Shown here piece by piece: positions 22,924-45,579 of a DNA stretch of 64,000 nt; the first letter of the stretch is position 1; every line of letters begins with the position of its first letter. Position numbers and translations under genes: made by a program. Source of the DNA: a virus. Its lineage: Duplodnaviria > Caudoviricetes. A model generated the notes under the pieces. It was not told where the DNA came from, made no database searches, and saw only the letters and a program-made list of their open reading frames with translations. The DNA lies in the IMG/VR virus record IMGVR_UViG_2867207765_000001, positions 1 to 64,000 of that record, one strand, 5' to 3'.

Positions 22924-22933
22924 CCGCGCACAT
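22924..22933 (+). promoter_or_regulatory. Class B motif CCGCGCACAT (representative of 8 copies)
   Basis: See findings; exactly 7 nt before start codon. Confidence 0.8.
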
Positions 22934-22940
22934 CACAGGC

Positions 22941-23606
22941 ATGACGACCTGGAACGCAGCCGACCACCTCCGCGCCGGTCAAGTCGGCGTCCCTGGCAAC
23001 GCCGGGTCCTTCGCCGGGAAGCGGAACACTGGCGACGACGTCACCCTGCTCGCCCCAGCCGCCGCGTCCGCGGACCCGTTCGCGTTGACCGCGGGTGAGG
23101 ACCGCCGCCGGAAGCGTCGCATCCGCACCGGGGACCGTCCCGACACCGTCACGTGGCGTCCCTCGGACTCCCTCGGCCCCATCCAGTTCGACCGCGGCGG
23201 GCAGGTTGCCGAGCTGACGCTCAAGAGCGTTCTCGTGTTCGCCCCAGAGCAGGGCACCGCCGGCGACACCTGGACCATCAGCCGCGCCAGCATCGAGGAC
23301 CTCGAGGCGCACATCGCACCCGACGAGGACGGCGGACCGTACGCCGCGGCGCTGTTCGACATGCTCGTTCAACGCGGCGCGCTGCGCCCACTCGACGACG
23401 CCGAGCGTGCGAAACTCGGCCCGCAGTACGCCGCAACACAGCGGAAGCAGGGGTCCTTTCACAACGACGAGCAGATGCGCCGGCAGGTCGAGAACCTTCA
23501 CGTCGTCAACCGGGACGCCGTGCTCGCCATTTACCCGGAGCTCACCAAGAACGGCGCCGGATGGCGCACCTACGCCGAACAGACCGGGTCACCGATCTGG
23601 AAGTAG
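22941..23606 (+). CDS. Leader-motif protein 1 (hypothetical)
   Basis: N-term MTTWNAADHLRAGQVGVPGNAGSFAGKRNTGDDVTL; CCGCGCACAT-N7-ATG. Confidence 0.8.
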   Translation: MTTWNAADHLRAGQVGVPGNAGSFAGKRNTGDDVTLLAPAAASADPFALTAGEDRRRKRRIRTGDRPDTVTWRPSDSLGPIQFDRGGQVAELTLKSVLVFAPEQGTAGDTWTISRASIEDLEAHIAPDEDGGPYAAALFDMLVQRGALRPLDDAERAKLGPQYAATQRKQGSFHNDEQMRRQVENLHVVNRDAVLAIYPELTKNGAGWRTYAEQTGSPIWK

Positions 23607-23644
23607 CAGACCGGCAGTAAGTCGACCGCGGGCATGCTTGTGGT

Positions 23645-24631
23645 GTGCCTCCGTTCGAACCAGCGCTTGCCCGCGCCGCCTCCCGCATCCCGCACCAGCT
23701 GCCTGGCGGGGTGCGGTTCGAGCCGAAGTTCGACGGCTGGCGCCTCATCGCAGAACGCTGCAACGGCAGCACCCGCCTCTGGTCCCGACGGAACACCGAC
23801 CTGACCGCTCACCTGCCCGACATCGCGGACGCCGTCGCCGACCAGGTGCCAGACGGGTTCACCCTCGACGGCGAAGTGGTCGTCTGGTCCGACGATGGGG
23901 AACGGCTCGATTTCCCAGCCCTGCAACGCCGGCTGATTACCAGCCGCCGCGACATCACCCAGACCATCCGCGACCACCCCGCGCACTACGTCGTCTTCGA
24001 CCTGCTCACCGTCGCCGGCCGCGACATCACCGCAGTGCCGCTCCGCAGCCGACGCGAACTCCTCACCGAACTCGCCGCCGACTGGCGGCCGCCACTGCAC
24101 CTCTGCCCGCAAACCGACAACCCCGACCTCGCCGAGGAATGGTTCCGCGACATGCCCGCCGCCGGCATCGAAGGCATCGTCGCGAAAGCCGCCAACGCGC
24201 CCTACCAGCCCGGGGAACGCACGTGGGTGAAAGTCAAACACCGGGACAGCGTCGACGTCGTCTGCGCCGCCGTCACCGGCACCCTCACCAACCCACAAGA
24301 ACTCATCGTCGGCCTACCCATCGACGGGGAGCTCCGCATCGTCGGCCGGACTGCACCCCTCGCCACGGCGGCAGCGCGCACCCTCGCGGCGTTCCTCGAG
24401 GAACCCGGCGCCGACCACCCCTGGCCCGAAGAGGTACCAGCCACCACCATCGAACAATTCGGCGGCGGCCGCGGCACCATCCACCTCACCCGAGTGAAAC
24501 CACTCACCATCGAAGTCAGCGCCGACACCGCCTGGTCCGGACGACGCTTCCGCCACACCCTGCGCTACCTCAGACCGCGACCAGAACTGAACCCAGACGA
24601 CGTCGAACTGCCGGACGCGCTCAGACGGTGA
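23645..24631 (+). CDS. ATP-dependent DNA ligase (LigC/LigD-ligase-like)
   Basis: EPKFDGWR, LDGEVV, FDLL, EGIVAK, YQPGER.WVKVK, RFRH...R.R. Confidence 0.93.
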   Translation: MPPFEPALARAASRIPHQLPGGVRFEPKFDGWRLIAERCNGSTRLWSRRNTDLTAHLPDIADAVADQVPDGFTLDGEVVVWSDDGERLDFPALQRRLITSRRDITQTIRDHPAHYVVFDLLTVAGRDITAVPLRSRRELLTELAADWRPPLHLCPQTDNPDLAEEWFRDMPAAGIEGIVAKAANAPYQPGERTWVKVKHRDSVDVVCAAVTGTLTNPQELIVGLPIDGELRIVGRTAPLATAAARTLAAFLEEPGADHPWPEEVPATTIEQFGGGRGTIHLTRVKPLTIEVSADTAWSGRRFRHTLRYLRPRPELNPDDVELPDALRR

Positions 24632-25115
24632 TGGGTGGTCCTCGCGCGGCCACTCACAGAGAAGCGACCGTGGCCCTCGCCACAGCGAACTCGGGCGACC
24701 GCCTGCTCCTTGATAGTTGACAACCGTGCTGAGAACGGGTCTAGGGGTCGCTGCCGGGTGAAATCTCCCTTCAGTCGCCGCTAGCCAACGGGTTAGTCGG
24801 CGGAGCGCGGGGGGAAATCCCTGAGATCGCCGCCGGCGAACAGATTGATGGGCGGATGACACTTCGCGACGTGAGCGATGGCTAGCTCACGAGCCCACAC
24901 TTCATCAGGAGCAGGGGCGAGCGAATGCTTGCACTCCGAGCACCATGCGCTTCGCCACGGGTCGTCATAGCCCAGAGCAGGCAAGTACGTTATGGCCACG
25001 CCCAGGAAGCTATCGGCGTTGGTCATGGGGTGCAACGCACGGCCCTTCGTCCGGTTCCGCATGCGAAACCGTCGCAGGCGGCTCCTCTGCCTGGCTCAAG
25101 AGAGGAGCTGCCGGG

Positions 25116-26318
25116 TCAGCCCTTCACGCAGAGCAGCGTCTGCAGATGCTCGACGACGTCGACGAGGTCGGACTGCGCGGCGATGACCGAGTGGATGTCC
25201 TTGTAGGCGCCGGGGATCTCGTCGATGACCGCCGTGTCGCGGCGGGACTCGATGGAACCCATCTGCTCGTTCAGGTCGTCGAGGGTGAAGCGGCGCTTCG
25301 CCTCCGAGCGGGACATCTTCCGGCCGGCGCCGTGGGACGCCGACTGGTACGACGCGTCGTTGCCGAGGCCTCTGACAATGAAGGAACCCGTGCCCATCGA
25401 GCCGGGAATGAGCGCGAGGTCGCCCTTGCCGGCGCGGATCGCGCCCTTGCGGGTGACGAGCATCTCGCGGCCGTCGATGATCTCCTCCGCCACGTAGTTG
25501 TGGTGGACGTTGATGTCGGAGTCGAACACCACGTTGAGCTGTTCGTAGTGCTTCGCGAACGCCTGCTTCGCGAGCCCCATCATGATCGCGCGGGAACGGA
25601 GGGCGTACTCCTGCGCCCAGGAGAGGTCGCGACGGTACGCGTCCATCTCCGGTGAGCCCTTGAGGAACACAGCGAGGTCACGAGCTTCCTTCGGCAGGTC
25701 CTGGTTGTGCGGCAGTCCCTTCGCGATGGCGATGTGCTGCTCGGCGAGCTCCTTGCCGATGTTCCGCGAACCGGAGTGCAGCGTCAGCCAAAGACGTCCC
25801 TCGGAGTCGGAGCACACTTCGATGAAGTGATTGCCGCCCCCAAGCGATCCCATCTGCTGGTGGGCTCGCTTCTCACGGTCCTGGACGCCGGAATGCAGGT
25901 TCTTGAACTGGCCCCAGAAGTTCGTCCAGCCGCGGTCGAGGCCGAGCTTGCGGACGTTCACCGGGTCCTCGTGGGAGTTGAACCCGACCGGGATTGCGTT
26001 CTCGAGCGATGCGCGCAGCTGCGGGAGACGATCGAGGTGTTCGACGGTGAGGTTCGTGCGAACCGCAGAGACACCGCAGCCGATGTCGACGCCGACCGCG
26101 TTCGGGCTGATCGCCTGCTCCATCGCGATGACAGACCCCACAGTCGCGCCTTTGCCCAGATGCACGTCCGGCATAACCCTGATGCCGTGCACCCAAGGCA
26201 GGTTGCCGATAGCGCGAAGCTGCTGCACAGCCTGCGACTCGACCTCGTGCTCATGCGCCCACATGAGCGTGTCGGTCTTCGAGCCGCGGAGCGGGACGGG
26301 GAACTCGTGGTTCGTCAT
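25116..26318 (-). CDS. rtcB: RNA-splicing ligase RtcB
   Basis: MPDVH.GKG, VGVDIGCG, GSLGGGNHF, LHSGSR, HHNY, RKGA, PGSMG, SHGAGR, DEIP.AYK. Confidence 0.97.
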   Translation of the reverse strand: MTNHEFPVPLRGSKTDTLMWAHEHEVESQAVQQLRAIGNLPWVHGIRVMPDVHLGKGATVGSVIAMEQAISPNAVGVDIGCGVSAVRTNLTVEHLDRLPQLRASLENAIPVGFNSHEDPVNVRKLGLDRGWTNFWGQFKNLHSGVQDREKRAHQQMGSLGGGNHFIEVCSDSEGRLWLTLHSGSRNIGKELAEQHIAIAKGLPHNQDLPKEARDLAVFLKGSPEMDAYRRDLSWAQEYALRSRAIMMGLAKQAFAKHYEQLNVVFDSDINVHHNYVAEEIIDGREMLVTRKGAIRAGKGDLALIPGSMGTGSFIVRGLGNDASYQSASHGAGRKMSRSEAKRRFTLDDLNEQMGSIESRRDTAVIDEIPGAYKDIHSVIAAQSDLVDVVEHLQTLLCVKG

Positions 26319-26366
26319 GGTTCCTCTATGCGCGGCGCGCCGGGGGAGCGGGCGGCGCGGACGGTA

Positions 26367-26699
26367 TCAGCGGGTGATGGCGCTGATGCTGGTGATGGGA
26401 GTGGTCTGTCGGACGGTGCCGACGTAGCCGTCGTCGCCGGTGCGGTCGGGCTTCACGAACGCGATCCGGCCGGGGAGCCCGACGACGAGAAGGAGGCTGT
26501 CGCAGTCGATGGTGTCCCCGTCGCCGTACGCCGCTTCCGCATCGTGGCGGGGGTCGGGCGACACGTCGGCGGGGAGGCGGCACATCGTCACGTGATGGTC
26601 GTCGGTGAGGGTGAAATGGTAGCGGCTGCCGCTTCGGGTGGTGACGGCGTACGTGCCGGCGGGGCTCTCCGTGGTGAGTGTGGTGAGGGCTTCGGTCAT
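26367..26699 (-). CDS. Hypothetical protein
   Basis: ATG 7 nt after GGCATAG; VTTRSGS.Y ... RQTTPI.SI. Confidence 0.65.
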   Translation of the reverse strand: MTEALTTLTTESPAGTYAVTTRSGSRYHFTLTDDHHVTMCRLPADVSPDPRHDAEAAYGDGDTIDCDSLLLVVGLPGRIAFVKPDRTGDDGYVGTVRQTTPITSISAITR

Positions 26700-26752
26700 G
26701 GTCGTCCTATGCCGCACGAGAGGCGGGAGGTGGCCATGGGCGCACTCGAGAG

Positions 26753-27349
26753 CTACGCGATCGCGTCCTGCATCAGGAACGTGCCGCCGTCGGAGATGGT
26801 GCGCCACGACCGTTGACGCGGCTCCTTCAAGAGCACGCGTCCGCGGGTGTCCCGGGTGACGCGGACGTTCTCGTACGTCTGCCAGCCAGTGCCGCCCATG
26901 TACCAGCCATACCGGGCGAGGGTCCCGCGACGAACCTCACCCACGGGGATGTCCGCAGCTTCGTACCCGCCGGCGTCCCGGAACGCCTGCACGTCCCGCT
27001 TCACCTCGTCGAGGCTGTGCATCGTCTGCAGCAGGTAGATGGCAGTGTCTTCGCTGTCGTCGTTCGTGGTCGCCAGCGACGGGAGGCGGCCCTTGAACGA
27101 GTCGTTGTACGGATACGCGCCCTTCTCTTCGAGGTCAGCGCGCACCGCGGCGTACTCCGGGTACAGGTGCCGGACCTGCTCGTTGTCCTGGTAGCGGCCG
27201 TTGAACACGAATGGCTCCGGCGCTGCGGTGGAAGCGCCGAGCGTGACGTCGTCAGCGGGTGAGTGGCCCTTCCCGACGAACGCGCCGCCGTTGCCCGGTA
27301 CGCCCTTCTGGCTTGCGCGAGGATGATCCGACTCATTCCAGGTGGTCAT
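26753..27349 (-). CDS. Leader-motif protein 2 (hypothetical)
   Basis: N-term MTTWNESDHPRASQKGVPGNGGAFVGKGHSPADDVTL; GCACACAT-N7-ATG. Confidence 0.8.
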   Translation of the reverse strand: MTTWNESDHPRASQKGVPGNGGAFVGKGHSPADDVTLGASTAAPEPFVFNGRYQDNEQVRHLYPEYAAVRADLEEKGAYPYNDSFKGRLPSLATTNDDSEDTAIYLLQTMHSLDEVKRDVQAFRDAGGYEAADIPVGEVRRGTLARYGWYMGGTGWQTYENVRVTRDTRGRVLLKEPRQRSWRTISDGGTFLMQDAIA

Positions 27350-27412
27350 AGCCCGGATGTGTGCGGCGATGGTGCAGATGACCATTCGAGGAGAGCCCTC
27401 GACTTGTGGGCA

Positions 27413-28630: not shown

Positions 28631-29161
28631 TCAGAGGTCGAAGGCGACGAGCTCTCCGGCCGCGGTCCACCCGACCTGAGCGCAGTCGACGGAGCCGGTC
28701 CAGCGGGGGAGAGTGTGGTGTTCCTCCCTGGTGGGCATGCGGACCCGTTCCATGCGGAGGACAGGTACATCGTCGATGAATTCCTCGACGGCGGTGGCGA
28801 TGGGGATCTCCCCGGTCTTGCCGTACCGCTGCGACCAGTTGGCTTCCCGCCACGAGTCGAGAAGCCCCTCTTCGGCGATGGGGACCTTCATGACGTCGGT
28901 GTTGGTGTGGAAGACGATGCGAGTCCGTCCGACCTCGTACGGGTGCTGCTCTGCCAGGGTGTGAGCGAGCGTGACGAAGCGTTCCCGGTCGGGAAGGTTC
29001 GGGTCGCGGAAGATGCCCTCGAGCTCGGTGTGGGTCAGCGGCACCGTCTCAGCGTAGGACGGCACTGGGGCGGACAGCGCCTCGCCGGCGTCCGGGCGGA
29101 GAGTAGCAGCGAACTGACCTCCGGCTCGGACGCCGGCGGGAACACGGGAAGCGACAGTCAC
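28631..29161 (-). CDS. Leader-motif protein 3, protein-kinase-like fold cargo
   Basis: N-term SRVPAGVRAGGQFAATLR; GRTRIVF..VMKVP..E..LRMERV..VD..QVG....LVAFD resembles a minimal kinase-like domain. Confidence 0.65.
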   Translation of the reverse strand: MTVASRVPAGVRAGGQFAATLRPDAGEALSAPVPSYAETVPLTHTELEGIFRDPNLPDRERFVTLAHTLAEQHPYEVGRTRIVFHTNTDVMKVPIAEEGLLDSWREANWSQRYGKTGEIPIATAVEEFIDDVPVLRMERVRMPTREEHHTLPRWTGSVDCAQVGWTAAGELVAFDL

Positions 29162-29179
29162 GCACCCCATGTGCGCGGG

Positions 29180-30772: not shown

Positions 30773-30857
30773 GGAAGAGATCCGTTCTGTCGGCGCGAGC
30801 CGCCGACATCATCCCTATGCGCGGGACCACGTCGGGGCTGCCGCGCACATGCGGAGC

Positions 30858-31775
30858 GTGACCCATCAGTTCGTGCGTAAGTCCCAGACCGGAGAGCCCA
30901 CCAGCAACGGAGGCCACTTCGGCAGCCACAAGCGCAGCAACGACCAGGTCAACCTCGGTCAGCTCGCCGCACCAGCAGGGGTTGGCAAGGAAGCCACCGT
31001 CTGGTGGGTGGAGGAGGTGCCACCGGTCGGCCGGCAGCGCAAGCCCCGCCGGGAACGGAAGTCGGGCACCATCTGCGTCACACTCCCCGTCATCGCGGCG
31101 GAGGACGCCCCGGTGACGTTCCGGGTGCCGTCGGAGTTCACCGATGACGAATCGGAAGTCCGCGAGTTCCGTACGTACGACGGGGCCCTCTACTGGTCGA
31201 CGCCGTTCCACGACACCCACGCCACCGCCGAACAACTTCTCGGGCAGGTTGCATCCCGTGTCGGCCAGGAGACGCATCCCAGCAAGGACCACGCCCAGCG
31301 GGAGGCGCAGGAGCGGCTGCGGGACATTGTCGTCATCGACGGGATCGTCTGGGAGAGGACTGCGGAACCCGGCTACCAGATCCGCACCTACGGGGAACCC
31401 GGCGGGAAGGACAGCAGAACCACCATCGGGTACGGCATCAAGGCCGCCGACAAGCACGGAGATCCGTGGTTCCCCGCCAGCCCGGCCGGATACGGCACCG
31501 CCGTTCACGCCGCCCTCGAACTCGCCGCACAACGCGGCGATACTGAGTCCATGGAACGTATCCCGCAGACGAAGCAGATCGGCACCGCACCGGAGACGCC
31601 GGTCGGGACGTTCTGGGATGAGCCGAAGTTCCAGCAAGGCCTCCTCGAGGACATCCGCACCGAGATTGCCGATCGGAAGTACGAAGGCCGCGACACACCC
31701 GACATCATGGAGAAGCTCTACGCGCAGCGCGGCGACCTCGTCCGGAAGCTCCGCGCAGCTGGCTACGACGCGTAA
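30858..31775 (+). CDS. Leader-motif protein 4 (paralog family A)
   Basis: N-term RKSQTGEPTSNGGHFGSHKRSNDQVNL; FR.YDG.LY, V.IDG.VW..T.EP.Y. Confidence 0.8.
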   Translation: MTHQFVRKSQTGEPTSNGGHFGSHKRSNDQVNLGQLAAPAGVGKEATVWWVEEVPPVGRQRKPRRERKSGTICVTLPVIAAEDAPVTFRVPSEFTDDESEVREFRTYDGALYWSTPFHDTHATAEQLLGQVASRVGQETHPSKDHAQREAQERLRDIVVIDGIVWERTAEPGYQIRTYGEPGGKDSRTTIGYGIKAADKHGDPWFPASPAGYGTAVHAALELAAQRGDTESMERIPQTKQIGTAPETPVGTFWDEPKFQQGLLEDIRTEIADRKYEGRDTPDIMEKLYAQRGDLVRKLRAAGYDA

Positions 31776-31802
31776 TACGCCGCGGCCGCGCACATGCCGG
31801 TC

Positions 31803-32798
31803 ATGACCGCAGACAGCATCATCCGCAAGAGCCACACCGGGGAAGCCGGGAACCGCGGTGAGTTCGGAACGCACCGCCACGACGACGACACCATCGACCT
31901 TGGCGTTGCTGGAAAGGGAGCATCCCTGCCCGCGTACGAGCAGGAGGTGGGCATCTCCTGGTACGAGATGGGGCTGCCGTCCTCTCGTCACCGTAAGTTT
32001 GTTCCAATCAAGCAGGAGGGGACCCACATCGTTCGGATCCCGCAGGTCTCCGCGGCCGATGCTCCGGAAGCGATGACCTACATCAGCAAGGACGTCTGGA
32101 CAAAGGAGGAGACGGAGCACCGTTTCCGAGCCATCGACGGTGAGCTGTACCGGCTCGTGCCAGGCGGTGCTGACGCGGTCACCGGCATCGCCCGGAGGGA
32201 GAGCTCCGGCTCCCAGTACCCCGACCGTTGGGGTGAGACGGTTGGCTCAGCGAAGGTACGTCAGCAAATGGACGAAGCGATCGAGGACTTCGTCCTCATC
32301 GACGGTGAAGCGTGGAGGCGAACGCCGGAGCCTGTGTATCAGGTGTCTAACCCTGGGATGGGCGGGAGCTACGCGTTCATCAATGTCGCTGGCGCACCGG
32401 ACACCAGCGAGGAGGCAGCCAGCAGCGACTTCTTCCCCGCCGACCAGTACGAAGAAGCAGTCGCGTTCGCTGGGCGGTTCGGACACGAGGTCAGCGGACC
32501 GGACGAGGGGAACCGCATCACACCCATGAACGGGTTCATCCCCGGGTCGACCTGGACTCCAGCGACCCGCATCTCGTTCCCCGACGAGCCGCTGTACACG
32601 CTCGACAGTACACAGTTCGCGAGCGCGTTCGCTGAGGTGCGGAGCACGGTGGAGTCGGTGCCCGGTGCCGTCACAGTCGTCGATGACGGGCGAGGCGGCA
32701 CCCGCCGAAAGGTCGACTGGACGAAATTCACCGCTCATCAAAAGTCGCAGTACGAGAACTACGTCACGCGCGCGGTCGAGGAGGGATACCTCCTCTAA
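31803..32798 (+). CDS. Leader-motif protein 5 (paralog family A)
   Basis: N-term RKSHTGEAGNRGEFGTHRHDDDTIDL; FRAIDGELY, IDGEAWRRTPEPVY, FPADQYEEAV. Confidence 0.8.
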   Translation: MTADSIIRKSHTGEAGNRGEFGTHRHDDDTIDLGVAGKGASLPAYEQEVGISWYEMGLPSSRHRKFVPIKQEGTHIVRIPQVSAADAPEAMTYISKDVWTKEETEHRFRAIDGELYRLVPGGADAVTGIARRESSGSQYPDRWGETVGSAKVRQQMDEAIEDFVLIDGEAWRRTPEPVYQVSNPGMGGSYAFINVAGAPDTSEEAASSDFFPADQYEEAVAFAGRFGHEVSGPDEGNRITPMNGFIPGSTWTPATRISFPDEPLYTLDSTQFASAFAEVRSTVESVPGAVTVVDDGRGGTRRKVDWTKFTAHQKSQYENYVTRAVEEGYLL

Positions 32799-32879
32799 CC
32801 AGTGCCGCCACGAGCGCCGCTGCGCCGCCAGGTGTTGCGGCGCTTCGTTGGTTCAGCAGTCCCCGCGCACATGCTGGTC

Positions 32880-33896
32880 ATGAACATGTCCACACCAGCG
32901 CACAAGGGGCAGGTCGGCGAACCCGGCCACGCCGGGCACTTCGCTCACACCCGTCACGACCACGACGAATCGGTCACCCTCAGCCTCGGCGCCCAGCCCG
33001 GCCGCGTTGACCTCGCACCGCTCACCCGCGAGGTCGACGTCGCCTGGTACGACCAGGAGCTCCCCTCGAAGCGGCACCGGAAGACAGTTGCCGTGGAGAA
33101 GCGCGGTACGGTCACGGTGAGCATCCGCCGGATCGCCGTCGAGGACGCTCCCGCAGCGTTCTCGCGCCCCCTCGGACCGGAGAGCGACGCCGCCGTCATC
33201 AACTACCGGGTCGTCGACGGCCAGCTGTACTCCGACGCGGACGACCGCCGCGGTGAGCCATGGTCTGCAGTCAATGACCTCATCGACGACTGGGCTAACC
33301 AGTCACAGGCCGACCAGTGGCACCACAAGACGGAGTCGGAGGTGAAAGCAAGCATCGAAGAGCGCGCCGAACGCGTCGTCGTCATCGACGACAAGACATG
33401 GGGGAAGGCGAAGGAGCCCGTGTACGGGATCACCACCTTCGGTCCCGGCGGAGGCGGCACCAGCATCTTCATCGAGACGGCGCCAACCACACAGCACGAA
33501 GCCGCAGACCCCTCCTACTTCCCAGCAGACCAGTACGACGAGGCGGTCGCATACGCGGTCGAAACGGCGACCCGCCGGGGCGACACCCAGTCGCTGGGTC
33601 GTCTGCAAGCCGCACCACGCATCGAAGTGACCGGGGCGTTCCAGCCGGGAACGACCTGGAACCCGGCACCACGGTTCGAGTTCCAGTACGCATGGGAGAA
33701 CCACGCCCGCGGGTTCGCCGCGTCATTCGCACAGCTCCGAAACGGCATCGCCTCAGTTCCCGGGGCCGTCGTCGTCGAACCGGACGGGAACGGCGGAACC
33801 CAACGACGGGTGGACTGGACGACGGTCACCGCCGAACACAAGTCGGCGTACAAGAGCTACCTCGACCGCGCCGCGGAAGAAGGCATCCTCCTCTAG
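32880..33896 (+). CDS. Leader-motif protein 6 (paralog family A)
   Basis: N-term HKGQVGEPGHAGHFAHTRHDHDESVTL; YRVVDGQLY, EPVY, FPADQYDEAV, RRVDWT. Confidence 0.8.
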   Translation: MNMSTPAHKGQVGEPGHAGHFAHTRHDHDESVTLSLGAQPGRVDLAPLTREVDVAWYDQELPSKRHRKTVAVEKRGTVTVSIRRIAVEDAPAAFSRPLGPESDAAVINYRVVDGQLYSDADDRRGEPWSAVNDLIDDWANQSQADQWHHKTESEVKASIEERAERVVVIDDKTWGKAKEPVYGITTFGPGGGGTSIFIETAPTTQHEAADPSYFPADQYDEAVAYAVETATRRGDTQSLGRLQAAPRIEVTGAFQPGTTWNPAPRFEFQYAWENHARGFAASFAQLRNGIASVPGAVVVEPDGNGGTQRRVDWTTVTAEHKSAYKSYLDRAAEEGILL

Positions 33897-34696: not shown

Positions 34697-34728
34697 AGAG
34701 GAGCCCACAGCGCAAGACAGGGCCGCGG

Positions 34729-35429: not shown

Positions 35430-35501
35430 ACGGTCGACGGCGAGCGCAGGCATCAGATACTGCGTTCACCGACGTGGTGCTGCCGGTGACCGCGGAGCGG
35501 C

Positions 35502-35972
35502 CTACTTCCGCACCGACGGTGTGGGCGATGGTGCCTCGTCGGGCGCCGGCAGTGGTGCCGTCCCGCGCAGGGGCGAAGGAACCGGCTTCGGAGCGACGGC
35601 ACCAGCAGGACTGGTCGCCGCGATCCCCGGAGCGATAGCCCCCACCGCAGGAGCAGCGGCACGCGGCGGCGTCCTGCCGCCAGCGCTAGCCCCAGCGGTC
35701 GTCGAGGAGCCCGACACTGTCCCCGCAGTGGTGCTGCCCGTGCCTGAGGTGCTTCCGGCGCTCGAGGTGGCGCCGGGCGGCGCGGGCGGCGCCGTGGCGC
35801 CGCCCAGCTGTGTCGTCGTGGTGGTGACGTCAGGGATGACGTGCTGCACGCTGCCGCCTCCGGAGACGAACAGGGCAGTGAGGACGGCGGCCGCTACCGC
35901 GACAACTACGAGAGCGGTAACGAGGATGACCCGCGAACGCTTGGCGCGCACGACGAACTCGTTAGTCCGCAT
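35502..35972 (-). CDS. Membrane-anchored Thr/Ser/Pro-rich protein
   Basis: AAGGAG RBS, N-terminal TM helix. Confidence 0.55.
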   Translation of the reverse strand: MRTNEFVVRAKRSRVILVTALVVVAVAAAVLTALFVSGGGSVQHVIPDVTTTTTQLGGATAPPAPPGATSSAGSTSGTGSTTAGTVSGSSTTAGASAGGRTPPRAAAPAVGAIAPGIAATSPAGAVAPKPVPSPLRGTAPLPAPDEAPSPTPSVRK

Positions 35973-36041
35973 AACTCTCCTTCCCCTTCTGGTATTGTTG
36001 TTGTGAACGACAGGAATGGTTCAGTTCCTGTTTCCGATGGG

Positions 36042-36114
36042 TGCCCCCGGCAGGTATCGAGCCCGCGTCCCCCGATTAAAAGTCGGGTGCTATTTCCGTC
36101 TCAGCTACGGAGGC
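36042..36114 (-). tRNA. tRNA-Lys(TTT)
   Basis: CCCGA-CTTTTAA-TCGGG; atypical T-loop. Confidence 0.8.
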
Positions 36115-36115
36115 A

Positions 36116-36190
36116 TGGAGCCTGAACCGGGATTCGAACCCGGGACATTCCGCTTACGATGCGGTTGCTCTACCACTGAGCTATTCAGGC
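36116..36190 (-). tRNA. tRNA-Thr(CGT)
   Basis: CCGC-ATCGTAA-GCGG; GGTTCGAATCC; CCA. Confidence 0.85.
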
Positions 36191-36271
36191 TTGGATTGTT
36201 CCCGCCGGGAGGGTGTACATCCCGGCGGGAACAACGCTTCTATGCGCGGGCAGTTCCGGCTGCTGCGGCGA

Positions 36272-36985
36272 TTAGTTGCGGCAGCCGTTCCGGTACCAGT
36301 CCAGCGACTCCTGCAGCTGCTCCGGCGTGCCGTACTCGAGGCGGATTTGCGCCGGTCCGGTGAGCTCCCGCATGAGCACCCGAGGGGGCTGGAACGGGAA
36401 GCCGGCGTTCTCCAACCGGTCGTCCGCCTGCACAGCGTTCTTCCACGGGGTGTCGCCGGCCGGGTCGTAGAACCGGACCTCGTTGAGGAGCGCGGACCTC
36501 GTAACCCCGCTCTCGTCGGCGGAATCGAACCGAAGCAGGCCAAGTTCCGCTCGGAACCGGTACGCCAGCTTCCCGTCCTCGTCTCGCGCCCACGGATGCA
36601 CGCCCTTCAGCGCGGTGTAGCCCGCACGCTCCCGGAAGTCCGGGACGGCGTTCGCCACCACAAGAAGCGGCAGCGTGTACATCCAGCTCTGCCGGTCTGT
36701 CGGGGTGATGATGAGCAGCGACGTCAGCTGCACAGTGGCGTCACCGAGCACCATCGGCGTGTACGGGACCGGGTTCCGTGTGATCGTCACCGTGTCCGGC
36801 ACCTTGCCCTCGAGACGGGACAGCGGAAACACCGCCGACTCCGGCTGCGCGTCGCGGTCCCCGGTCCCGAGGAGCTCCAGCGTCACGTCCTCACCATCGA
36901 TGGCGGCCACCCGGCCGTACCGCGGGAGACCCCGCTCCTGAGCGGAGATGTACGCGTTGCCGCCGACGTAAAGGTTCCTGGTCAC
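36272..36985 (-). CDS. Hypothetical protein
   Basis: GGAG RBS, upstream CCGCGCATAG. Confidence 0.65.
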   Translation of the reverse strand: MTRNLYVGGNAYISAQERGLPRYGRVAAIDGEDVTLELLGTGDRDAQPESAVFPLSRLEGKVPDTVTITRNPVPYTPMVLGDATVQLTSLLIITPTDRQSWMYTLPLLVVANAVPDFRERAGYTALKGVHPWARDEDGKLAYRFRAELGLLRFDSADESGVTRSALLNEVRFYDPAGDTPWKNAVQADDRLENAGFPFQPPRVLMRELTGPAQIRLEYGTPEQLQESLDWYRNGCRN

Positions 36986-37061
36986 GAGCGCTGCTCCGTT
37001 CCGCGGCGCCGTCGCGGCGCCGTCACGACCTCTATGCGCGGAACGGTGACACTCCTGTGCG

Positions 37062-37135
37062 AGGCGACGACAGGAATCGAACCTGCGTGACCCGGGTTGC
37101 AGCCGGGCGCCTACGTGCCACTCAGCCACGCCGCC
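37062..37135 (-). tRNA. tRNA-Cys(GCA)
   Basis: CCCGG-CTGCAAC-CCGGG; U73. Confidence 0.88.
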
Positions 37136-37436
37136 ATGATGTGCCCGCCGCGGGAGCGTGACTCCCCGCGGGCGACTCCCAGATGTTGCACCGGGAGGTG
37201 GTTCGCGGGCGGGAGAGGCCCGACCCAGAGTCGCCCCTGGCCGGCTTGCACCGCTCGATTCCCCGGACCTTGCCGGGCCTGCGCACCCCGACGCAGCCTG
37301 CTGCTTCGGAGACGGCTTCGGACTCCGCCCCTGAAGGCGTCACCGCGTCGCGTGAAAGGCGCGCGCCCACCTGTGAAGGTGAGCACGATGAGTGTGCGAC
37401 TGCTCCACCGCGTCGTACGCGGTGTGCGTGGACCTG

Positions 37437-37883
37437 CTACCCGTTGGACGGGCCAGCGGGCACGGTGGTGGCGGTCGGCATGGGTGTTCCGTGCGGGACC
37501 GGGGTGATGGAGCCGTTGTCGCCGACGACTGCGCCGGCGTCGGGGACGGCCGGTGTGAAGTCGCGGACGAACGGTGTCTCCGTGACCGCACCCCGAACGG
37601 ACTCGCCGAGCGCGGGAACCGTCTGGCCGGCCCGGTAGTACACCCACGTGGTGGCGACCTCGTGTTCCGCGCAGTTTTCGTCCGGAAGCCGCTCCAACGT
37701 CTTCGTGTCGGAGCAGACCTTCGCGTACCAGTACGTCGTGTGTTGGGCGGACGAGCCATCGTCCGTCATCAGGCCCAAGGACCAGAAGATGCCGATCAGG
37801 AAGACGAACAGGGAGATGACCAAGCAGATGGGAAGGACTGCGTCCTCGATGTCACCGCGATCAGAGCGGAGGAAGTTCTTCAC
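37437..37883 (-). CDS. Membrane-anchored protein, paralog of 46497-47024
   Basis: YA..C....T..R..D.NC ... W.YY..G.TVPA.G shared. Confidence 0.7.
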   Translation of the reverse strand: MKNFLRSDRGDIEDAVLPICLVISLFVFLIGIFWSLGLMTDDGSSAQHTTYWYAKVCSDTKTLERLPDENCAEHEVATTWVYYRAGQTVPALGESVRGAVTETPFVRDFTPAVPDAGAVVGDNGSITPVPHGTPMPTATTVPAGPSNG

Positions 37884-37949
37884 GCCGTCCCCTATGCCTG
37901 CGACATCGGATGAGAAGGGCGGGCCGCCGCGCCCAACAACTGAGCGGCT

Positions 37950-38020
37950 TGGACCTGGTCAGACTCGAACCCGCGGTGCCCGGCATGCCCTGCAGGTGCG
38001 CCACCGGCTGCGCGACAGGC
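37950..38020 (-). pseudogene. Degenerate tRNA-Ala(GGC) copy
   Basis: Aligns by eye to 38241-38313 with broken stems. Confidence 0.65.
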
Positions 38021-38240
38021 GTGCCCGGCCGTCGCGCGTGAGTGCGCGACGGCCGGATTGTCGCTTCCCCGCAACAGTGGCCGACGGTATTGCCGCAACT
38101 TGATACGGGTACTACTTCGGGTTGCCCAGATGGATGGTCCGGAGTTACCGCTGCCGCCTCTACCGTCGCGGGGCGCCCGCCGGCGGGTGCTGGTGCGACG
38201 GCCTGTACGGCAATGTCCGTGCGTCTCCCAACGCACGACG

Positions 38241-38313
38241 TGGACCTGGCCGGGCTCGAACCGGCGACCCCCTGCATGCCATGCAGGTGCGCTACCAACT
38301 GCGCCACAGGCCC
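38241..38313 (-). tRNA. tRNA-Ala(GGC)
   Basis: CCTGC-ATGGCAT-GCAGG; G3:U70. Confidence 0.92.
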
Positions 38314-38420
38314 ATGCTTCCGGCCGTCGGACAGGTTCTGCTGCCGACAGCCGGACCGTTCCACTGATCGGCTCAGTGGGAAGCCTCCCCACTCCTATGC
38401 AGGGTGGGGACGTTCAGCCG

Positions 38421-39482
38421 CTACGCGTCATTCTTCATCGCGTACTTGTTGCTGATGGCCTTCCAGGACGCGCGGATGACCTTCCCGTCCACGACGATCT
38501 TCGACGTTGTCTTCGCCCGCCAGACGACACCCTCGGCGTTGCGCTGCGGATTCACCAGCGACTTCAGACCGTCGACCTGCGCGAGCGCCTCGTCCGAGGT
38601 GTGCGGGTACGGCAGGTCGTAGACGGGAACGGCGATGTCGAGGACGAACTGCGGCCAGGAGTCGCGGGGGAGCTCCTGCCCGTCGACGATGAGGGTGAAC
38701 GCGGCGAAGGTGACGTCGCGGAGCTGCAGCGGGTTCTTCTGGATGCCGGGCCCGAACAGCTCACCCTGCAGGGCGATGGTGTTCGCGTCCGGGAACGCGC
38801 TGCGGAGCCGGTTGTGCAGGTCGAGTTCGAGGGCCTTCTTCCACATGGAGTGGTCCTCGTTCCGCTTGAACTCGTAGTTGCGGCCAGCGACACCGTCCTG
38901 GTCGCCGAGGATGAACACCGTCATCGACGTGCCGTCGACCTTCTCGGTGGCGACCCACTCGACGTCGCGGGCGCGCAGCGGCTCCGACACGTTCTGGATG
39001 CGCTCCTCGTCCGTCTTTGGGAACTGCGCGGGGAAGTTCCCAGCGACGTCACCGGCGATACCAGCAGGCAGCGGCGGGTCCCACTTGCGGACCCGGAGGA
39101 CGTCGGTGACGTCGGTGCCGAAGTCGAGGCCGGCGACCTCGGGGAACTCGGACAGCGGGAACACGATGCCCTGCGAGTACTGGCCGCGGAGCTTCGCGGT
39201 CTTGAGGACATGGCCGGTGAACCCGGTCAGCGCGTCGGTGCGTACGCCACGCGGGGCGAGGAACGCGAACCGCGGGTCGGTGGTGTCCAGGTGGGAGTCC
39301 ACCTCGATGTACACGCACGGGTCGCCGATGGAGAACTCGCCCTTCTTCACCACGACGTCCCAGCCGCGGACGCGAACACGCTCGATGGCGTCGGCGTCAG
39401 GGATGGGCTGCACGTCGAGGATGGTTTCAACGGTTGCGAGTGCACGTTCCGTCGTGGGCGGCTGAATGAGGATGTCGGTCAT
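38421..39482 (-). CDS. ATP-dependent RNA ligase, DRB0094/Rnl5-like
   Basis: N-terminal OB (PIPDADAIE..V.GW.VVVKKGEF, YIE.DS), ATEKVDGTS, QGELFGPGIQKN, EGVV, KAISNKY. Confidence 0.92.
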   Translation of the reverse strand: MTDILIQPPTTERALATVETILDVQPIPDADAIERVRVRGWDVVVKKGEFSIGDPCVYIEVDSHLDTTDPRFAFLAPRGVRTDALTGFTGHVLKTAKLRGQYSQGIVFPLSEFPEVAGLDFGTDVTDVLRVRKWDPPLPAGIAGDVAGNFPAQFPKTDEERIQNVSEPLRARDVEWVATEKVDGTSMTVFILGDQDGVAGRNYEFKRNEDHSMWKKALELDLHNRLRSAFPDANTIALQGELFGPGIQKNPLQLRDVTFAAFTLIVDGQELPRDSWPQFVLDIAVPVYDLPYPHTSDEALAQVDGLKSLVNPQRNAEGVVWRAKTTSKIVVDGKVIRASWKAISNKYAMKNDA

Positions 39483-39534
39483 GGCTCTTCTATGCGCGGA
39501 GTTCGGCGCTGCAATGCAACAGCAGCTGGCGGGA

Positions 39535-39885
39535 TCACGCTATGGCGAATGCAGTGATCCGATGTCCGTTCTCGGTGAACCAGGTGCCGTGCTGACCTCC
39601 GATGAGGACGAGCTCATCGTCTTTCCCGTCGAGGCGGGCGATGGCGCACACCCCGTCGGTGTCGGCGATGAAGGTGCCGGTGTAGGCGAAGTGGTCGTCA
39701 CCTCCGGCGCTGATGCTGAACACTGCCCGGTCACCGTCCTGTGCGGCCGCGACGTTCACCGGGGTGAGCCCGTCGGTGCTGACCCCGTGCGCGGAGAGGT
39801 TGACGGCAGACGGGGTGAACGTCTTCTCGCTGAAGCGGCCGTCGGTGCTGCGGGGATGGTCGGAGGTCACAAACGTGGCGGTCAT
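39535..39885 (-). CDS. Leader-motif protein 7
   Basis: N-term FVTSDHPRSTDGRFSEKTFTPSAVNL; GCACACAG-N7-ATG. Confidence 0.8.
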   Translation of the reverse strand: MTATFVTSDHPRSTDGRFSEKTFTPSAVNLSAHGVSTDGLTPVNVAAAQDGDRAVFSISAGGDDHFAYTGTFIADTDGVCAIARLDGKDDELVLIGGQHGTWFTENGHRITAFAIA

Positions 39886-39928
39886 AACCGATCTGTGTGC
39901 GGCAGCCAGCCGGCGGTGCCGATGGGGC

Positions 39929-40708
39929 CTACTTCTCCGGCCGGGTGAGGCGGTACAGGGTGCAGTCGCCGCGTCGGACGGTGACGGAGTCGCCGTCGAG
40001 GTCCTCCTCGAGAAGGCCGCGGCGGACCAGGGAGTCCACGGTCTCCTGGTTGTAGCAGTACGCGTCGTCGCCGATCATGGCGTGCCCGGACCGGTGCCCG
40101 TCGACGACGTATACGCGGCCGCGGCCGTACTTGTCGGCGAACTCGAGTGCGTCCTTCGCGACGGCGGAGACGCCTGAGTCGCGCGGCTTCCACTTCGGCG
40201 GTGTGTAGAACTGCACGGCGGGGAAGGACGTGGCGAACCGCTGCCCGGCGAGCGGCCCGTCCTGGAACTCCCATGGCGTTGGGTCGTACGTCTCGCCCTT
40301 CCGGAGGTTGCGGGATGGAGCGTCGGCGGCTGGGTCGTTCCAGTCGGCCAGCGGCAGCTCGCGCTCAGTGAAGGCGCGGAGACGGTCGCCGTCCTCAGTG
40401 AACCACGTTCCGCTGGCGGTACGGGACGCGGTGATGCGGGCGCCGGTGCCGTCCGCGTCGATGGTGACGAACTCTCCGTCAGCGGCGTCAACAGTGCCGC
40501 GGAAGGTGCGCGTGTCATCGTAGGTGTGAACGCGGACGGTGACCCGCTGGCCCTCGTGCACTCGTTCCAGGGCGACGATCCCGTGCTTGTCCGTGTTCAC
40601 CATGGTGGTGCCGGCGCGCTCGAGGGTGACGGCGTCACCCGTGAACGTCTTCTCGGCGAACTTCCCGGAACGGGCGCGGGGGTGGTCGGACTCAATGAAG
40701 GCGGTCAT
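39929..40708 (-). CDS. Leader-motif protein 8 (N-half paralogous to protein 7)
   Basis: N-term FIESDHPRARSGKFAEKTFTGDAVTL; shares GTWFTE.G.R..AF. Confidence 0.8.
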   Translation of the reverse strand: MTAFIESDHPRARSGKFAEKTFTGDAVTLERAGTTMVNTDKHGIVALERVHEGQRVTVRVHTYDDTRTFRGTVDAADGEFVTIDADGTGARITASRTASGTWFTEDGDRLRAFTERELPLADWNDPAADAPSRNLRKGETYDPTPWEFQDGPLAGQRFATSFPAVQFYTPPKWKPRDSGVSAVAKDALEFADKYGRGRVYVVDGHRSGHAMIGDDAYCYNQETVDSLVRRGLLEEDLDGDSVTVRRGDCTLYRLTRPEK

Positions 40709-40728
40709 GCTCGGGATGTGCGCGGCGG

Positions 40729-45573: not shown

Positions 45574-45579
45574 ATCGTG

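What the first reader, a model, noticed from the sequence alone, without database searches (positions are those of the whole stretch)
22924..40725. Eight proteins share an N-terminal leader peptide AND a dedicated promoter variant: candidate cargo-targeting system
Seen: eight dispersed genes on both strands (starts 22941+, 27349-, 29161-, 30858+, 31803+, 32880+, 39885-, 40708-) begin with a related ~30-aa leader, consensus (HP)R/K..(G.PG)xxG.F......(D/E).V.L. Examples: DHPRASQKGVPGNGGAFVGKGHSPADDVTL; DHLRAGQVGVPGNAGSFAGKRNTGDDVTL; RKSHTGEAGNRGEFGTHRHDDDTIDL; DHPRSTDGRFSEKTFTPSAVNL; RVPAGVRAGGQFAATLR. The leader is fused to at least five unrelated bodies. All eight are preceded by CCGC(G/A)CACA(T/G) exactly 7 nt before the start codon, whereas the other motif-bearing genes use CATAG/CATAC. 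I saw no CACAT-class site before a gene lacking the leader. Inference: a separately timed regulon of cargo proteins carrying a sorting signal, for example for capsid packaging and ejection (by analogy with the T4 capsid-targeting sequence) or for transfer into a recipient cell. The conserved V.L end could be a processing site. HPR..G.F-like peptides do occur in phage proteins, but the one-to-one coupling with a promoter class is the notable point.
Basis: partly seen in the sequence, partly recalled or inferred. Interest (0 to 1): 0.92.

Follow-up and report, generated by a model that had tools for sequence, protein, structure and literature searches.

The report
Leader-tagged protein regulon on megaplasmid
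A giant plasmid of a soil actinobacterium marks about fifty unrelated proteins with the same short N-terminal tag and switches them on from their own promoter variant, which looks like a sorting or delivery system that has not been described before.

Summary
The window lies in the 607-kb Curtobacterium plasmid D40. All eight genes start 7 nt after CCGC(G/A)CACA(T/G) and begin with a disordered leader of about 35 aa: basic residues, G-x-F, about 12 aa, V-x-L. Plasmid-wide, 41 of 43 such start-adjacent sites precede a leader. None of the 37 start-adjacent sites of the general class (CCGCGCATAG) does. The two-class arrangement recurs with diverged promoter sequences in an Arthrobacter plasmid (30 of 34 versus 1 of 65) and in an unnamed Micrococcales element, G367 (34 of 40 versus 1 of 31). 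Weaker signs appear in two further lineages.

In a related whole genome, the leader matches listed and 40 of 41 general-promoter sites lie on the plasmid contig. Bodies are mostly orphans, but include an ArdC-like anti-restriction protein and, in Arthrobacter, a DNA ligase and a CCA-adding enzyme. No capsid, terminase or sheath gene was found. VirB4-like and FtsK-like ATPases and a type IV pilus cluster are conserved.

My best reading (0.4) is a docking or translocation signal for establishment proteins delivered during plasmid transfer. The main rival (0.3) is a cytoplasmic partner-binding or turnover tag on an early regulon. The receptor, transcription start sites and export are untested.

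The parts
22924..22933 (+). class B promoter-like site CCGCGCACAT, 7 nt before the ATG at 22941
22941..23606 (+). leader gene 1 (221 aa). Leader is roughly aa 1-37 (DHLRAGQVGVPGNAGSFAGK..DDVTL). Orphan body.
27357..27366 (-). class B site CCGCACACAT, 7 nt before the ATG at 27349
26753..27349 (-). leader gene 2 (198 aa). Similar to gene 1 only over the first 50 aa or so. Its pS16 orthologue carries a different leader subtype.
29169..29178 (-). class B site CCGCGCACAT, 7 nt before the GTG at 29161
28631..29161 (-). leader gene 3 (176 aa from the GTG; RefSeq starts it at 29044). Leader RVPAGVRAGGQFAATLRPDAG is conserved in pS16.
30841..30850 (+). class B site CCGCGCACAT, 7 nt before the GTG at 30858. 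It is back to back with a class A site on the - strand at 30824.
30858..31775 (+). leader gene 4 (305 aa), a distant paralogue of genes 5 and 6
31786..31795 (+). class B site CCGCGCACAT, 7 nt before the ATG at 31803
31803..32798 (+). leader gene 5 (331 aa; precomputed Pfam PF27633). In the AlphaFold2 model, residues 1-39 have pLDDT below 50 and the body is folded. No structural match.
32863..32872 (+). class B site CCGCGCACAT, 7 nt before the ATG at 32880
32880..33896 (+). leader gene 6 (338 aa), 37% identical to gene 5
39893..39902 (-). class B site CCGCACACAG, 7 nt before the ATG at 39885
39535..39885 (-). leader gene 7 (116 aa), leader SDHPRSTDGRFSEKTF..AVNL
40716..40725 (-). class B site CCGCGCACAT, 7 nt before the ATG at 40708, immediately downstream of tRNA-Arg
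39929..40708 (-). leader gene 8 (259 aa). The N-terminal part of its body is paralogous to gene 7.
26326..26335 (-). comparator: class A site CCGCGCATAG, 7 nt before the ATG of RtcB (25116-26318), which has no leader. The class is kept in the pS16 orthologue.
39490..39499 (-). comparator: class A site CCGCGCATAG, 7 nt before the ATG of the RNA ligase (38421-39482), which has no leader. The class is kept in pS16.
18773..18782 (-). ninth CCGCGCACAT site in the window. No start codon 7 nt downstream; status unknown.

Best explanation
SHOWN.
- The eight genes are the window's share of about 53 genes on Curtobacterium plasmid D40 that combine two features.
- The first feature is a plasmid-private promoter variant, class B: G-CCGC(G/A)CACA(T/C) at -18 to -8. 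It mostly lies 7 nt before the start codon, so the mRNAs are probably leaderless.
- The second feature is an N-terminal peptide of about 35 aa, predicted disordered: basic residues, often G.P, then G-x-F, about 12 residues, then V-x-L. A flexible linker and an unrelated folded body follow.
- The rest of the plasmid uses class A (T-CCGCGCATAG-AGG) for genes without the leader and for tRNA operons.
- Class A sites are almost confined to the plasmid contig in a related genome, so the plasmid family probably brings its own promoter-recognition factor. A sigma-70-family gene is conserved among three lineages.

INFERRED.
- The leader is a short docking motif read by one conserved plasmid protein.
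- Most likely it is a recognition or translocation signal. It would hand establishment and counter-defence proteins to the plasmid's transfer apparatus, so that they reach or act in the recipient cell at the moment of transfer. Examples are the ArdC-like protein and, in the Arthrobacter relative, a NAD-dependent DNA ligase and a CCA-adding enzyme. The apparatus comprises two FtsK-family ATPases, VirB4-like ATPases and a type IV pilus.
- Class B promoters would co-regulate this cargo set with mating functions. In two relatives the same class also drives pilin genes.
For: Association of promoter class and leader.
- D40: 41 of 43 versus 0 of 37.
- Arthrobacter plasmid: 30 of 34 versus 1 of 65.
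- G367, whose leaders were not used to build the HMM: 34 of 40 versus 1 of 31 (all).
- pS16 orthologues keep their class.
- In G358, 13 of 17 SD-led leader genes have a CCGCCCAC site within 130 nt upstream, and 10 of those 13 read CCGCCCACTT(C/T).
- In G385, leaders follow CCGCCCTTATC while CCGCGCATA is also abundant there.

Co-variation in one orthologue pair. The CCA-adding/HD protein has class B' and a leader in Arthrobacter, and class A and no leader in D40.

The leader is a protein-level module.
- Gly codons at the conserved G match genome usage, and the F position ranges from residue 16 to 36.
- Subtypes swap on homologous bodies.
- Residues 1-39 have pLDDT below 50 in front of a body at 80-94.
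- The leader precedes known domains: ArdcN 87-189 plus Peptidase_M78 238-311, and DUF7007 55-178.

Plasmid restriction.
- All G001 leader matches that were listed lie on contig C2. G001 had 58 matches in total; 7 matches across the three records searched were not listed.
- Class A motif in G001: 40 of 41 sites on C2.

Machinery conserved across lineages.
- A 580-aa FtsK/SpoIIIE ATPase, 43-49% identical in all five lineages and embedded among leader genes in G367.
- A 1737-aa FtsK-domain protein.
- Two AAA_10/VirB4-like ATPases.
- A type IV pilus cluster.
- Class B-type promoters drive pilins in G367 and Arthrobacter.

Precedent. An F-type T4SS translocates several plasmid proteins to recipients (abstracts of PMC8406263 and PMC11288057, seen in the listing). 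ArdC is described as 'transmitted along with the DNA' (abstract of bioRxiv 10.1101/361121, listing).
Against: - No call shows export, cleavage or binding.
- PLSDB/MOB-suite types D40, pS16 and the Arthrobacter plasmid as non-mobilizable, that is, no recognised relaxase.
- Known T4SS substrate signals are C-terminal or internal (recalled), so an N-terminal signal would be atypical.
- For plasmid R388, ardC had to be expressed in the recipient and not in the donor (abstract of PMC7213743, listing). That favours early expression over protein transfer.
- The coupling has exceptions. Arthrobacter 126942- and LigA 317908+ carry leaders behind class A'. D40 295488 and the Fic gene at 569089 have class B-like sites without a leader.
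- The leader is not more conserved than the bodies between D40 and pS16: 35-70% versus 40-76% identity.
- Leaderless transcription is inferred from spacing only. The RNA contigs laid could not show transcript starts.
Confidence: 0.4

Rival explanations
1. Early-establishment regulon without export. Class B genes are the set expressed first in a new host or under a particular plasmid state. The leader is a cytoplasmic short linear motif, either a shared partner-binding tag (for example to the incoming DNA or translocase complex, or to a chaperone) or a degron that makes these proteins short-lived.
For: The promoter-class and leader association says nothing about export. Bodies look intracellular and nucleic-acid related: ArdC-like, GmrSD_N, HA, DNA ligase, CCA-adding enzyme and zinc ribbons. 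R388 ArdC acts when expressed in the recipient (abstract of PMC7213743). Leading-region anti-defence genes are expressed early (abstract of PMC11541004).
Against: This reading does not by itself explain why about 50 unrelated proteins need one conserved docking peptide. The leader genes are scattered on both strands over hundreds of kb rather than forming one leading region. No candidate protease or adaptor was identified.
Confidence: 0.3
2. The promoter plus the first 35 codons or so form a 5' cassette that spread by duplication and recombination, or by gene birth on a common template. The shared peptide has no function of its own.
For: Local paralogy exists: genes 4-6, genes 7-8, G000 86421/86766, and tandem arrays in Arthrobacter at 3.9-15 kb. 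Leaders diverge about as fast as bodies.
Against: G, F and L are at least 90% conserved over 82 leaders from two genera while the DNA is not conserved. The leader persists while the promoter sequence changes between lineages and even when the mRNA has an SD-containing 5'UTR. Subtypes swap on homologous bodies. The leader is fused to known domains.
Confidence: 0.08
3. N-terminal export signal for the plasmid-borne flagellar type III secretion apparatus.
For: D40 carries a complete flagellar gene set including FlhA, FliPQR, FlhB and FliI at 571.8-601.7 kb. Flagellar and T3SS export signals are N-terminal and disordered (recalled).
Against: The Arthrobacter plasmid has 45 leader matches, but no homologue of the flagellar genes appeared in the D40-versus-Arthrobacter comparison. 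Only the adjacent sigma factor gene has one. T3SS signals are not sequence-conserved (recalled). The bodies look intracellular.
Confidence: 0.04
4. Cargo-loading signal for a proteinaceous container: a phage capsid as with the T4 capsid-targeting sequence, a contractile injection system, or an encapsulin.
For: The N-terminal, disordered, modular tag on many unrelated bodies resembles the T4 capsid-targeting sequence and PVC/eCIS cargo signals (recalled). The tool calls the 94.5-kb piece holding the window a virus record.
Against: No Phage_capsid (PF05065) or Terminase_6N (PF03237) in D40 or the Arthrobacter plasmid, and no Phage_sheath_1 (PF04984) in D40. The replicon has RepA/ParA. No phage record resembles the region beyond tRNAs. 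Encapsulin genes were not searched for.
Confidence: 0.03
5. The conserved element acts at the RNA level, as a 5' mRNA feature of leaderless transcripts, and the peptide similarity is a by-product.
For: Most class B genes start 7 nt after the motif, and many begin ATGAC(C/G).
Against: Class A leaderless genes also begin ATGACC/GTGAC but lack the leader. Codons at the conserved residues vary as in the genome at large, and the motif position varies from residue 16 to 36. SD-led genes carry the same leader.
Confidence: 0.02

Closest known systems
Effector regulons with secretion signals (T3SS and T4SS effectors; protein transfer by conjugative T4SS such as pED208)
   Same: Many unrelated proteins share a short, disordered targeting signal and are co-regulated with the transfer machine. 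Conjugative T4SS can carry plasmid proteins into recipients (abstracts of PMC8406263 and PMC11288057, listing). VirB4-like and FtsK-like ATPases are present here.
   Different: The signal here is N-terminal and sequence-conserved (G-x-F ... V-x-L). Transfer has not been shown. Each gene has its own promoter variant, mostly with a leaderless start.
T4 capsid-targeting sequence and phage internal proteins
   Same: A short N-terminal tag directs unrelated proteins to one destination. Removal by cleavage is possible.
   Different: No capsid, terminase or sheath gene was found. The replicon is a plasmid with RepA/ParA.
N-terminal packaging signals of PVC/eCIS payloads
   Same: An N-terminal disordered stretch of about 50 aa that is necessary for loading diverse payloads.
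   Different: No sheath (PF04984) in D40. About 50 cargo genes are scattered over the replicon rather than clustered beside one injection-system operon.
Leading-region anti-defence islands of conjugative plasmids (PMC11541004, abstract in the listing)
   Same: Plasmid genes for establishment and anti-restriction, including an ArdC-like member here, set apart from the rest by their regulation.
   Different: The genes here are dispersed on both strands over hundreds of kb and are marked by a protein tag. No single-strand promoter structure is evident.
Element-specific promoter or start-associated motifs: the 34-bp motif over the -10 of 19 pMP7017 promoters (PMC10832533, passages read) and the start-associated sequences of Cluster K mycobacteriophages (recalled)
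   Same: A mobile element of Actinobacteria carries its own repeated motif at a fixed place before many genes.
   Different: Here there are two or three related classes, with no canonical -10/-35, a fixed 7-8 nt distance to start codons, and one class tied to a protein leader.

Membership tests
Phage capsid-targeted internal proteins (T4 CTS type) | The element encodes a capsid, a packaging terminase and a prohead protease | tested here: not met
   PF05065 and PF03237 gave 0 matches in D40 and the Arthrobacter plasmid, while the control genomes matched. This holds only within the reach of these two Pfam models.
Phage capsid-targeted internal proteins (T4 CTS type) | Short N-terminal tag on unrelated proteins | tested here: met
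Phage capsid-targeted internal proteins (T4 CTS type) | Tag removed by the prohead protease | not testable with these tools
   Needs N-terminal proteomics.
T4SS-translocated substrates of conjugative elements | VirB4-type ATPase and a coupling-protein-type (FtsK/VirD4-like) ATPase encoded by the element | tested here: met
   AAA_10 at 43.4 bits in the 1218-aa protein; FtsK_SpoIIIE in the 1737-aa protein; a 580-aa FtsK/SpoIIIE protein annotated by PGAP. These are conserved in relatives.
T4SS-translocated substrates of conjugative elements | Relaxase and oriT present | tested here: inconclusive
   PLSDB/MOB-suite typing is 'non-mobilizable' for D40, pS16 and the Arthrobacter plasmid. I ran no relaxase search of my own.
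T4SS-translocated substrates of conjugative elements | Protein shown to enter recipient cells | not testable with these tools
   Needs a CRAfT-type assay.
Flagellar / type III secretion substrates | Export apparatus co-occurs with the substrates | tested here: not met
   D40 has the apparatus. The Arthrobacter plasmid has 45 leader matches but no homologues of the flagellar genes in the plasmid comparison. Host chromosomes were not examined.
eCIS / PVC payloads | Contractile sheath and tube encoded nearby | tested here: not met
   PF04984 gave 0 matches in D40. Tube and baseplate families were not searched.
Type IV prepilins (class III signal peptides) | Basic leader ending in G, followed by a hydrophobic helix of about 20 residues with E at +5 | tested here: not met
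   After G-x-F the leaders continue with polar residues (H, E, R, D) and have no hydrophobic stretch. True pilins of the same elements do have that stretch.
Actinobacterial leaderless-gene promoters read by the housekeeping sigma factor | -10 hexamer TANNNT about 7 nt upstream of the start codon, used genome-wide | tested here: not met
   The spacing fits. However, positions -12 to -7 read CATAGA (class A) or CACAT. (class B), with no T at -7. In addition, 40 of 41 class A sites in a whole genome lie on the plasmid contig. The TANNNT consensus is recalled.
ArdC anti-restriction proteins (one member, D40 102398-103678, - strand) | ArdcN ssDNA-binding domain followed by an M78-type metalloprotease domain | tested here: met
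   ArdcN 28.2 bits (cut-off 22.6) at residues 87-189. Peptidase_M78 26.3 bits (cut-off 22) at residues 238-311.

The most novel reading that the evidence does not exclude
A family of Micrococcales megaplasmids and integrated elements runs a private transcription system with at least two promoter classes. It uses a dedicated, sequence-conserved N-terminal signal to send about 45-58 unrelated proteins per element through its FtsK/VirB4/pilus transfer apparatus into the recipient cell, ahead of or together with the DNA. The cargo includes anti-restriction, DNA-ligase and tRNA-repair enzymes. This would be an 'injected establishment proteome' of a size so far known only for pathogen effector systems.
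Probability: 0.3. Interest if true: 0.95.

Novelty: new variant of a known kind. Interest (0 to 1): 0.85.

Why it matters
If the leader is a delivery signal, it defines a new route by which very large plasmids of soil actinobacteria establish themselves against host defences. It would also supply a ready-made list of about 50 candidate establishment and counter-defence proteins per plasmid, most with no known family. The leader is a short portable tag that could be tested directly with reporter fusions.

Whatever the leader does, the data show a plasmid family with promoters that the host chromosome does not use, split into classes. That makes the question of how a megaplasmid separates its transcription programme from the host's directly testable with a few reporter constructs and one conserved sigma-factor gene.

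Tried and rejected
- Phage origin. Megablast and tblastn against phage records gave only tRNA matches or nothing. A DnaE search gave only distant matches of about 37% identity.
- Family searches on the eight window proteins. Pfam and PHROGs gave nothing significant.
- Word-indexed search with residues 1-45 of one leader found only the query itself.
- Relatives cannot be drawn for a virus record.
- The search for related loci with the 1026-aa backbone protein found one relative only, pCPAA3.
- Structure of gene 5. Foldseek against the PDB gave no match at E <= 0.001. The VIA-align wide search gave a best Z of 4.5, below the level that means anything. The body's fold remains unassigned.
- RNA evidence. 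Four RNA-library runs of one study hold contigs matching parts of the stretch with no differing letters listed (tables 3 and 8), at depths of about 2-28. These include pieces inside leader genes, for example 31965-32290, 32579-32963, 39564-39932 and 40061-40390. Contigs cannot show transcript starts, strand or level, and DNA carry-over is not excluded, so this is no evidence for or against leaderless starts.
- Polyvalent-protein paper PMC5512222. A term search found no mention of such a leader, and my recollection that it treats KTSC was not borne out.
- 'The leader is more conserved than the body' was tested and not found.
- The ECF sigma factor at D40 111835-112404 was rejected as the promoter reader, because it has no Arthrobacter orthologue.
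- Literature. Searches found no description of this leader or of these promoter classes. Only listings and abstracts were seen, apart from passages of PMC5512222 and PMC10832533.

Full report
WHERE THE WINDOW LIES

The window has 67% G+C. Window 22000-42000 is 100% identical to the circular 607,661-bp plasmid D40 of Curtobacterium sp. MCBD17_040, NZ_CP126274.1. For window positions from 22000 on, window position = record position - 417,245. A 3-nt indel separates the two between window 20000 and 22000. The 'genome' held for the window is a 94.5-kb piece that the tool calls a virus record.

I fetched the whole plasmid. It has RepA and ParA, a type IV pilus-like cluster, an FtsK/SpoIIIE gene and a full flagellar regulon. 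The window itself holds 34 tRNA genes, a tmRNA, RtcB, an RNA ligase, a DNA ligase and two TnpB genes.

THE OBSERVATION

CCGCRCACAK occurs 9 times in the window against 1.6 expected, and 0 of 100 shuffles reached 9. RefSeq uses the same start for 7 of the 8 genes. The bodies fall into five unrelated groups.

A second and commoner motif, T-CCGCGCATAG-AGG, occurs 21 times in the 94.5 kb. It stands 7 nt before the start codons of proteins without the leader (RtcB, the RNA ligase, TnpB and others). It also stands further upstream of SD-led genes and tRNA clusters, where the position 7 nt downstream is usually a purine. Neither class has a conserved -35 element. The conserved block spans -18 to -5 in class A and -18 to -8 in class B. 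I therefore read both as promoter -10-region elements, and the adjacent genes as leaderless. This is an inference from spacing. No transcript start was mapped.

PLASMID-WIDE TEST

- CCGCRCACA occurs 70 times in D40 against 11 for the reversed control.
- An HMM seeded on the eight window leaders and iterated over all 21,912 possible N-termini of at least 60 codons found 48 leader genes at E < 0.01. Five more were added by eye from class B sites.
- Of 43 sites CCGC[GA]CACAN + 7 nt + ATG/GTG + ORF of at least 60 aa, 41 carry a leader. The two exceptions are 295488 and the Fic gene at 569089. Of 37 equivalent class A sites, none does. The HMM included D40 and Arthrobacter leaders, so for those two replicons the test is partly circular.
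- Leader genes without a strict site fall into four groups. Two have an 8-nt spacing. Three have one-mismatch variants of the motif. Three have a class B site followed by an SD-containing 5'UTR. Three sit second in an operon behind a class B gene. One further gene (93858-) fits none of these groups and stayed unclear.

RELATIVES

pS16 (Curtobacterium, about 77% nucleotide identity). Orthologous leader genes keep class B, while RtcB and the RNA ligase keep class A.

Arthrobacter sp. zg-Y1110 plasmid (400 kb).
- GCCGCACACA occurs 121 times against 0 for the control.
- Sites continuing TAG..., 8 nt before the ATG, precede proteins without the leader.
- Sites continuing G(G/A)..GG(C/T), 7-8 nt before the ATG, precede proteins that start with ..NRQP.G.P.GGQFA...H.EP...L.
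- Counts: 30 of 34 against 1 of 65.
- So the Curtobacterium class B sequence CCGCACACAT belongs to the general class here. What is conserved is the existence of a variant class tied to the leader, not its sequence.

The leader HMM (82 leaders, alignment A2; G, F and L are at least 90% conserved).
- It finds 54 matches in D40, 45 in the Arthrobacter plasmid and 58 in the whole genome of C. pusillum AA3. Every listed match in that genome lies on the plasmid contig.
- It matches in 10 of 401 sampled genomes of the same order, clustered in five of them. Only 18 candidates per genome were scored there, so these counts are lower bounds.

Three of those genomes, fetched.
- G367 has 45 leader genes in 200 kb of a 1.53-Mb contig. 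Leaders follow C-CCGCACAT(C/G)TACC, and other genes follow TG-CCGCACAT. The counts are 34 of 40 against 1 of 31, and these leaders were not in the HMM. Three of the six exceptions are type IV pilins.
- G385 has leaders behind CCGCCCTTATC, beside abundant CCGCGCATA.
- G358 has 17 leader genes in a 4.28-Mb contig, all with SD-type 5'UTRs. Thirteen have a CCGCCCAC site within 130 nt upstream, and ten of those read CCGCCCACTT(C/T).

The class definitions for the relatives were made after looking at the data. The p-values (7e-20 and 6e-13) are therefore descriptive.

THE PROMOTERS ARE PRIVATE TO THE ELEMENT

In the C. pusillum genome, 40 of 41 CCGCGCATAGRG sites are on the 567-kb plasmid contig and 1 is on the chromosome. 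The reversed control gave 1.

One sigma-70-family gene (regions 2, 3 and 4) is shared by D40, the Arthrobacter plasmid and G367. An ECF sigma factor at 112 kb is not shared. Which factor reads which class is unknown.

THE LEADER IS A PROTEIN-LEVEL MODULE

- Codons at the conserved Gly are GGC 25, GGG 10, GGT 5 and GGA 5 of 45, close to genome usage.
- The Phe lies between residues 16 and 36, and the Phe-to-Leu distance is mostly 12.
- In an AlphaFold2 model of gene 5 (11-sequence alignment, mean pLDDT 78), residues 1-39 are below 50 and the body is at 80-94.
- In the gene 5 family, close homologues carry the RKSHTGEAGN.GEFGTH subtype and distant ones carry FRE.DHPRA..GMFTDKHH. F21 and L33 are invariant.
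- Two window genes and their pS16 orthologues carry different subtypes.
- Overall the leader is not more conserved than the body: 35-70% against 40-76% identity.

WHAT THE BODIES ARE

Of 51 D40 leader proteins scanned, Pfam names only a few: GmrSD_N (2), LRV_2 (2), HA (1), DUF7007 (1), ArdcN (1), Peptidase_M78 (1) and DZR (1). PHROGs adds 'anti-restriction protein' and 'metallo-protease'.

One 427-aa protein has the full ArdC architecture behind the leader. In the Arthrobacter plasmid a CCA tRNA nucleotidyltransferase and the NAD-dependent DNA ligase carry leaders. The D40 orthologue of the first lacks the leader and has a class A promoter, so leader and promoter class co-vary. The Arthrobacter ligase has a leader behind a class A' promoter, which is an exception.

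A database search with the leader profile returned 41 proteins at E <= 1. All are 'hypothetical' apart from that enzyme. They come from Arthrobacter, Curtobacterium, Cellulosimicrobium and metagenomes. Gene 5's body has no structural match.

MACHINERY

No Phage_capsid or Terminase_6N was found in D40 or the Arthrobacter plasmid, and no Phage_sheath_1 in D40. The flagellar genes of D40 have no counterparts on the Arthrobacter plasmid.

Conserved across the lineages examined:
- A soluble 580-aa FtsK/SpoIIIE ATPase, 43-49% identical. In G367 it sits in the middle of a run of leader genes.
- A 1737-aa membrane protein with an FtsK domain.
- Two AAA_10/VirB4-like ATPases. One of them is split by a LAGLIDADG intein in D40.
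- Several large proteins without any family.
- Type IV pilus ATPases, platform proteins and a prepilin peptidase.

Class B-type promoters drive pilin genes in G367 and the Arthrobacter plasmid. In D40 they stand upstream of a pilus ATPase operon. PLSDB types all three named plasmids as non-mobilizable.

INTERPRETATION

Shown: a plasmid-family-specific regulon of proteins tagged with the leader, driven by a promoter variant.

Inferred: the leader is a docking motif for one conserved partner. Given about 50 unrelated cargoes, the ArdC-like, ligase and tRNA-repair members, the FtsK-family and VirB4-like ATPases, and the co-regulation with pilins, I rate a translocation or delivery signal for establishment proteins as most likely (0.4).

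The main rival is an early regulon whose leader is a cytoplasmic binding or turnover tag (0.3). R388 ArdC acts when expressed in the recipient, which favours that side (abstract of PMC7213743).

I rate the remaining readings low, for the reasons given under each: a functionless 5' cassette, flagellar export, container loading, and an RNA-level element.

LITERATURE

Five searches and passages of two papers gave no description of this leader or of these promoter classes. pCPAA3 is mentioned only as a tmRNA-bearing megaplasmid (PMC10832533, passage). I have not seen supplements or subscription-journal papers.

Noticed in passing
window 34622-50610 (- strand): An array of 34 tRNA genes plus a tmRNA (47064-47454, tag ANASRTDYALAA) on a plasmid. 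Several clusters sit downstream of class A promoter sites, for example sites at 36249, 41654 and 43741.
   Followed up: partly
window 1876-3434 and 20437-21998: Two IS607-type TnpB genes, 92% identical. Each starts with a GTG 7 nt after a class A site, so the transposon-borne gene uses the plasmid's private promoter.
   Followed up: no
D40 record 562401-566057 (outside the window): The VirB4-like AAA_10 ATPase carries a LAGLIDADG/Hom_end insertion (residues 719-809) and is 1218 aa, against 837 aa in the Arthrobacter orthologue. This is probably an intein.
   Followed up: partly
D40 record 571800-601700 (outside the window): A complete flagellar regulon (FlhA, FlhB, FliPQR, FliI, hook, rod, flagellin, MotAB, CsrA/FliW) is plasmid-borne. 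It is absent from the related Arthrobacter plasmid.
   Followed up: partly
D40 record 23765-48401 and scattered (outside the window): A third promoter-like motif, TTCGCCGCAT(G/C)T, has 22 sites against 8 for the reversed control. Eight lie in the type IV pilus cluster, and others lie before conserved transfer-type operons (129178-, 505238+, 540339+). It resembles the leader-class motif of G367.
   Followed up: partly
window 30815-30850: A class A site on the - strand (30824) and a class B site on the + strand (30841) lie back to back within 36 nt, forming a divergent promoter pair of the two classes.
   Followed up: no
window 20000-22000: The window differs from the RefSeq plasmid record by a 3-nt insertion or deletion somewhere in this interval.
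   Followed up: no
window 28-1344, 4907-6016, 7616-8803, 23645-24631, 25116-26318, 38421-39482: A phage-like auxiliary set on a plasmid: NAPRTase, TerC/DUF475, TelA, an ATP-dependent DNA ligase, RtcB and an RNA ligase with a PHA02142 OB domain. Together with the tRNA array this suggests tRNA and RNA repair as a counter-defence.
   Followed up: partly
G358:C1:830001-950000 and G367:C7:1040001-1240000 (loci L062-L077): Leader-gene clusters lie inside contigs of 4.28 Mb and 1.53 Mb. Relatives of the plasmid may therefore exist integrated in chromosomes or as very large replicons.
   Followed up: partly
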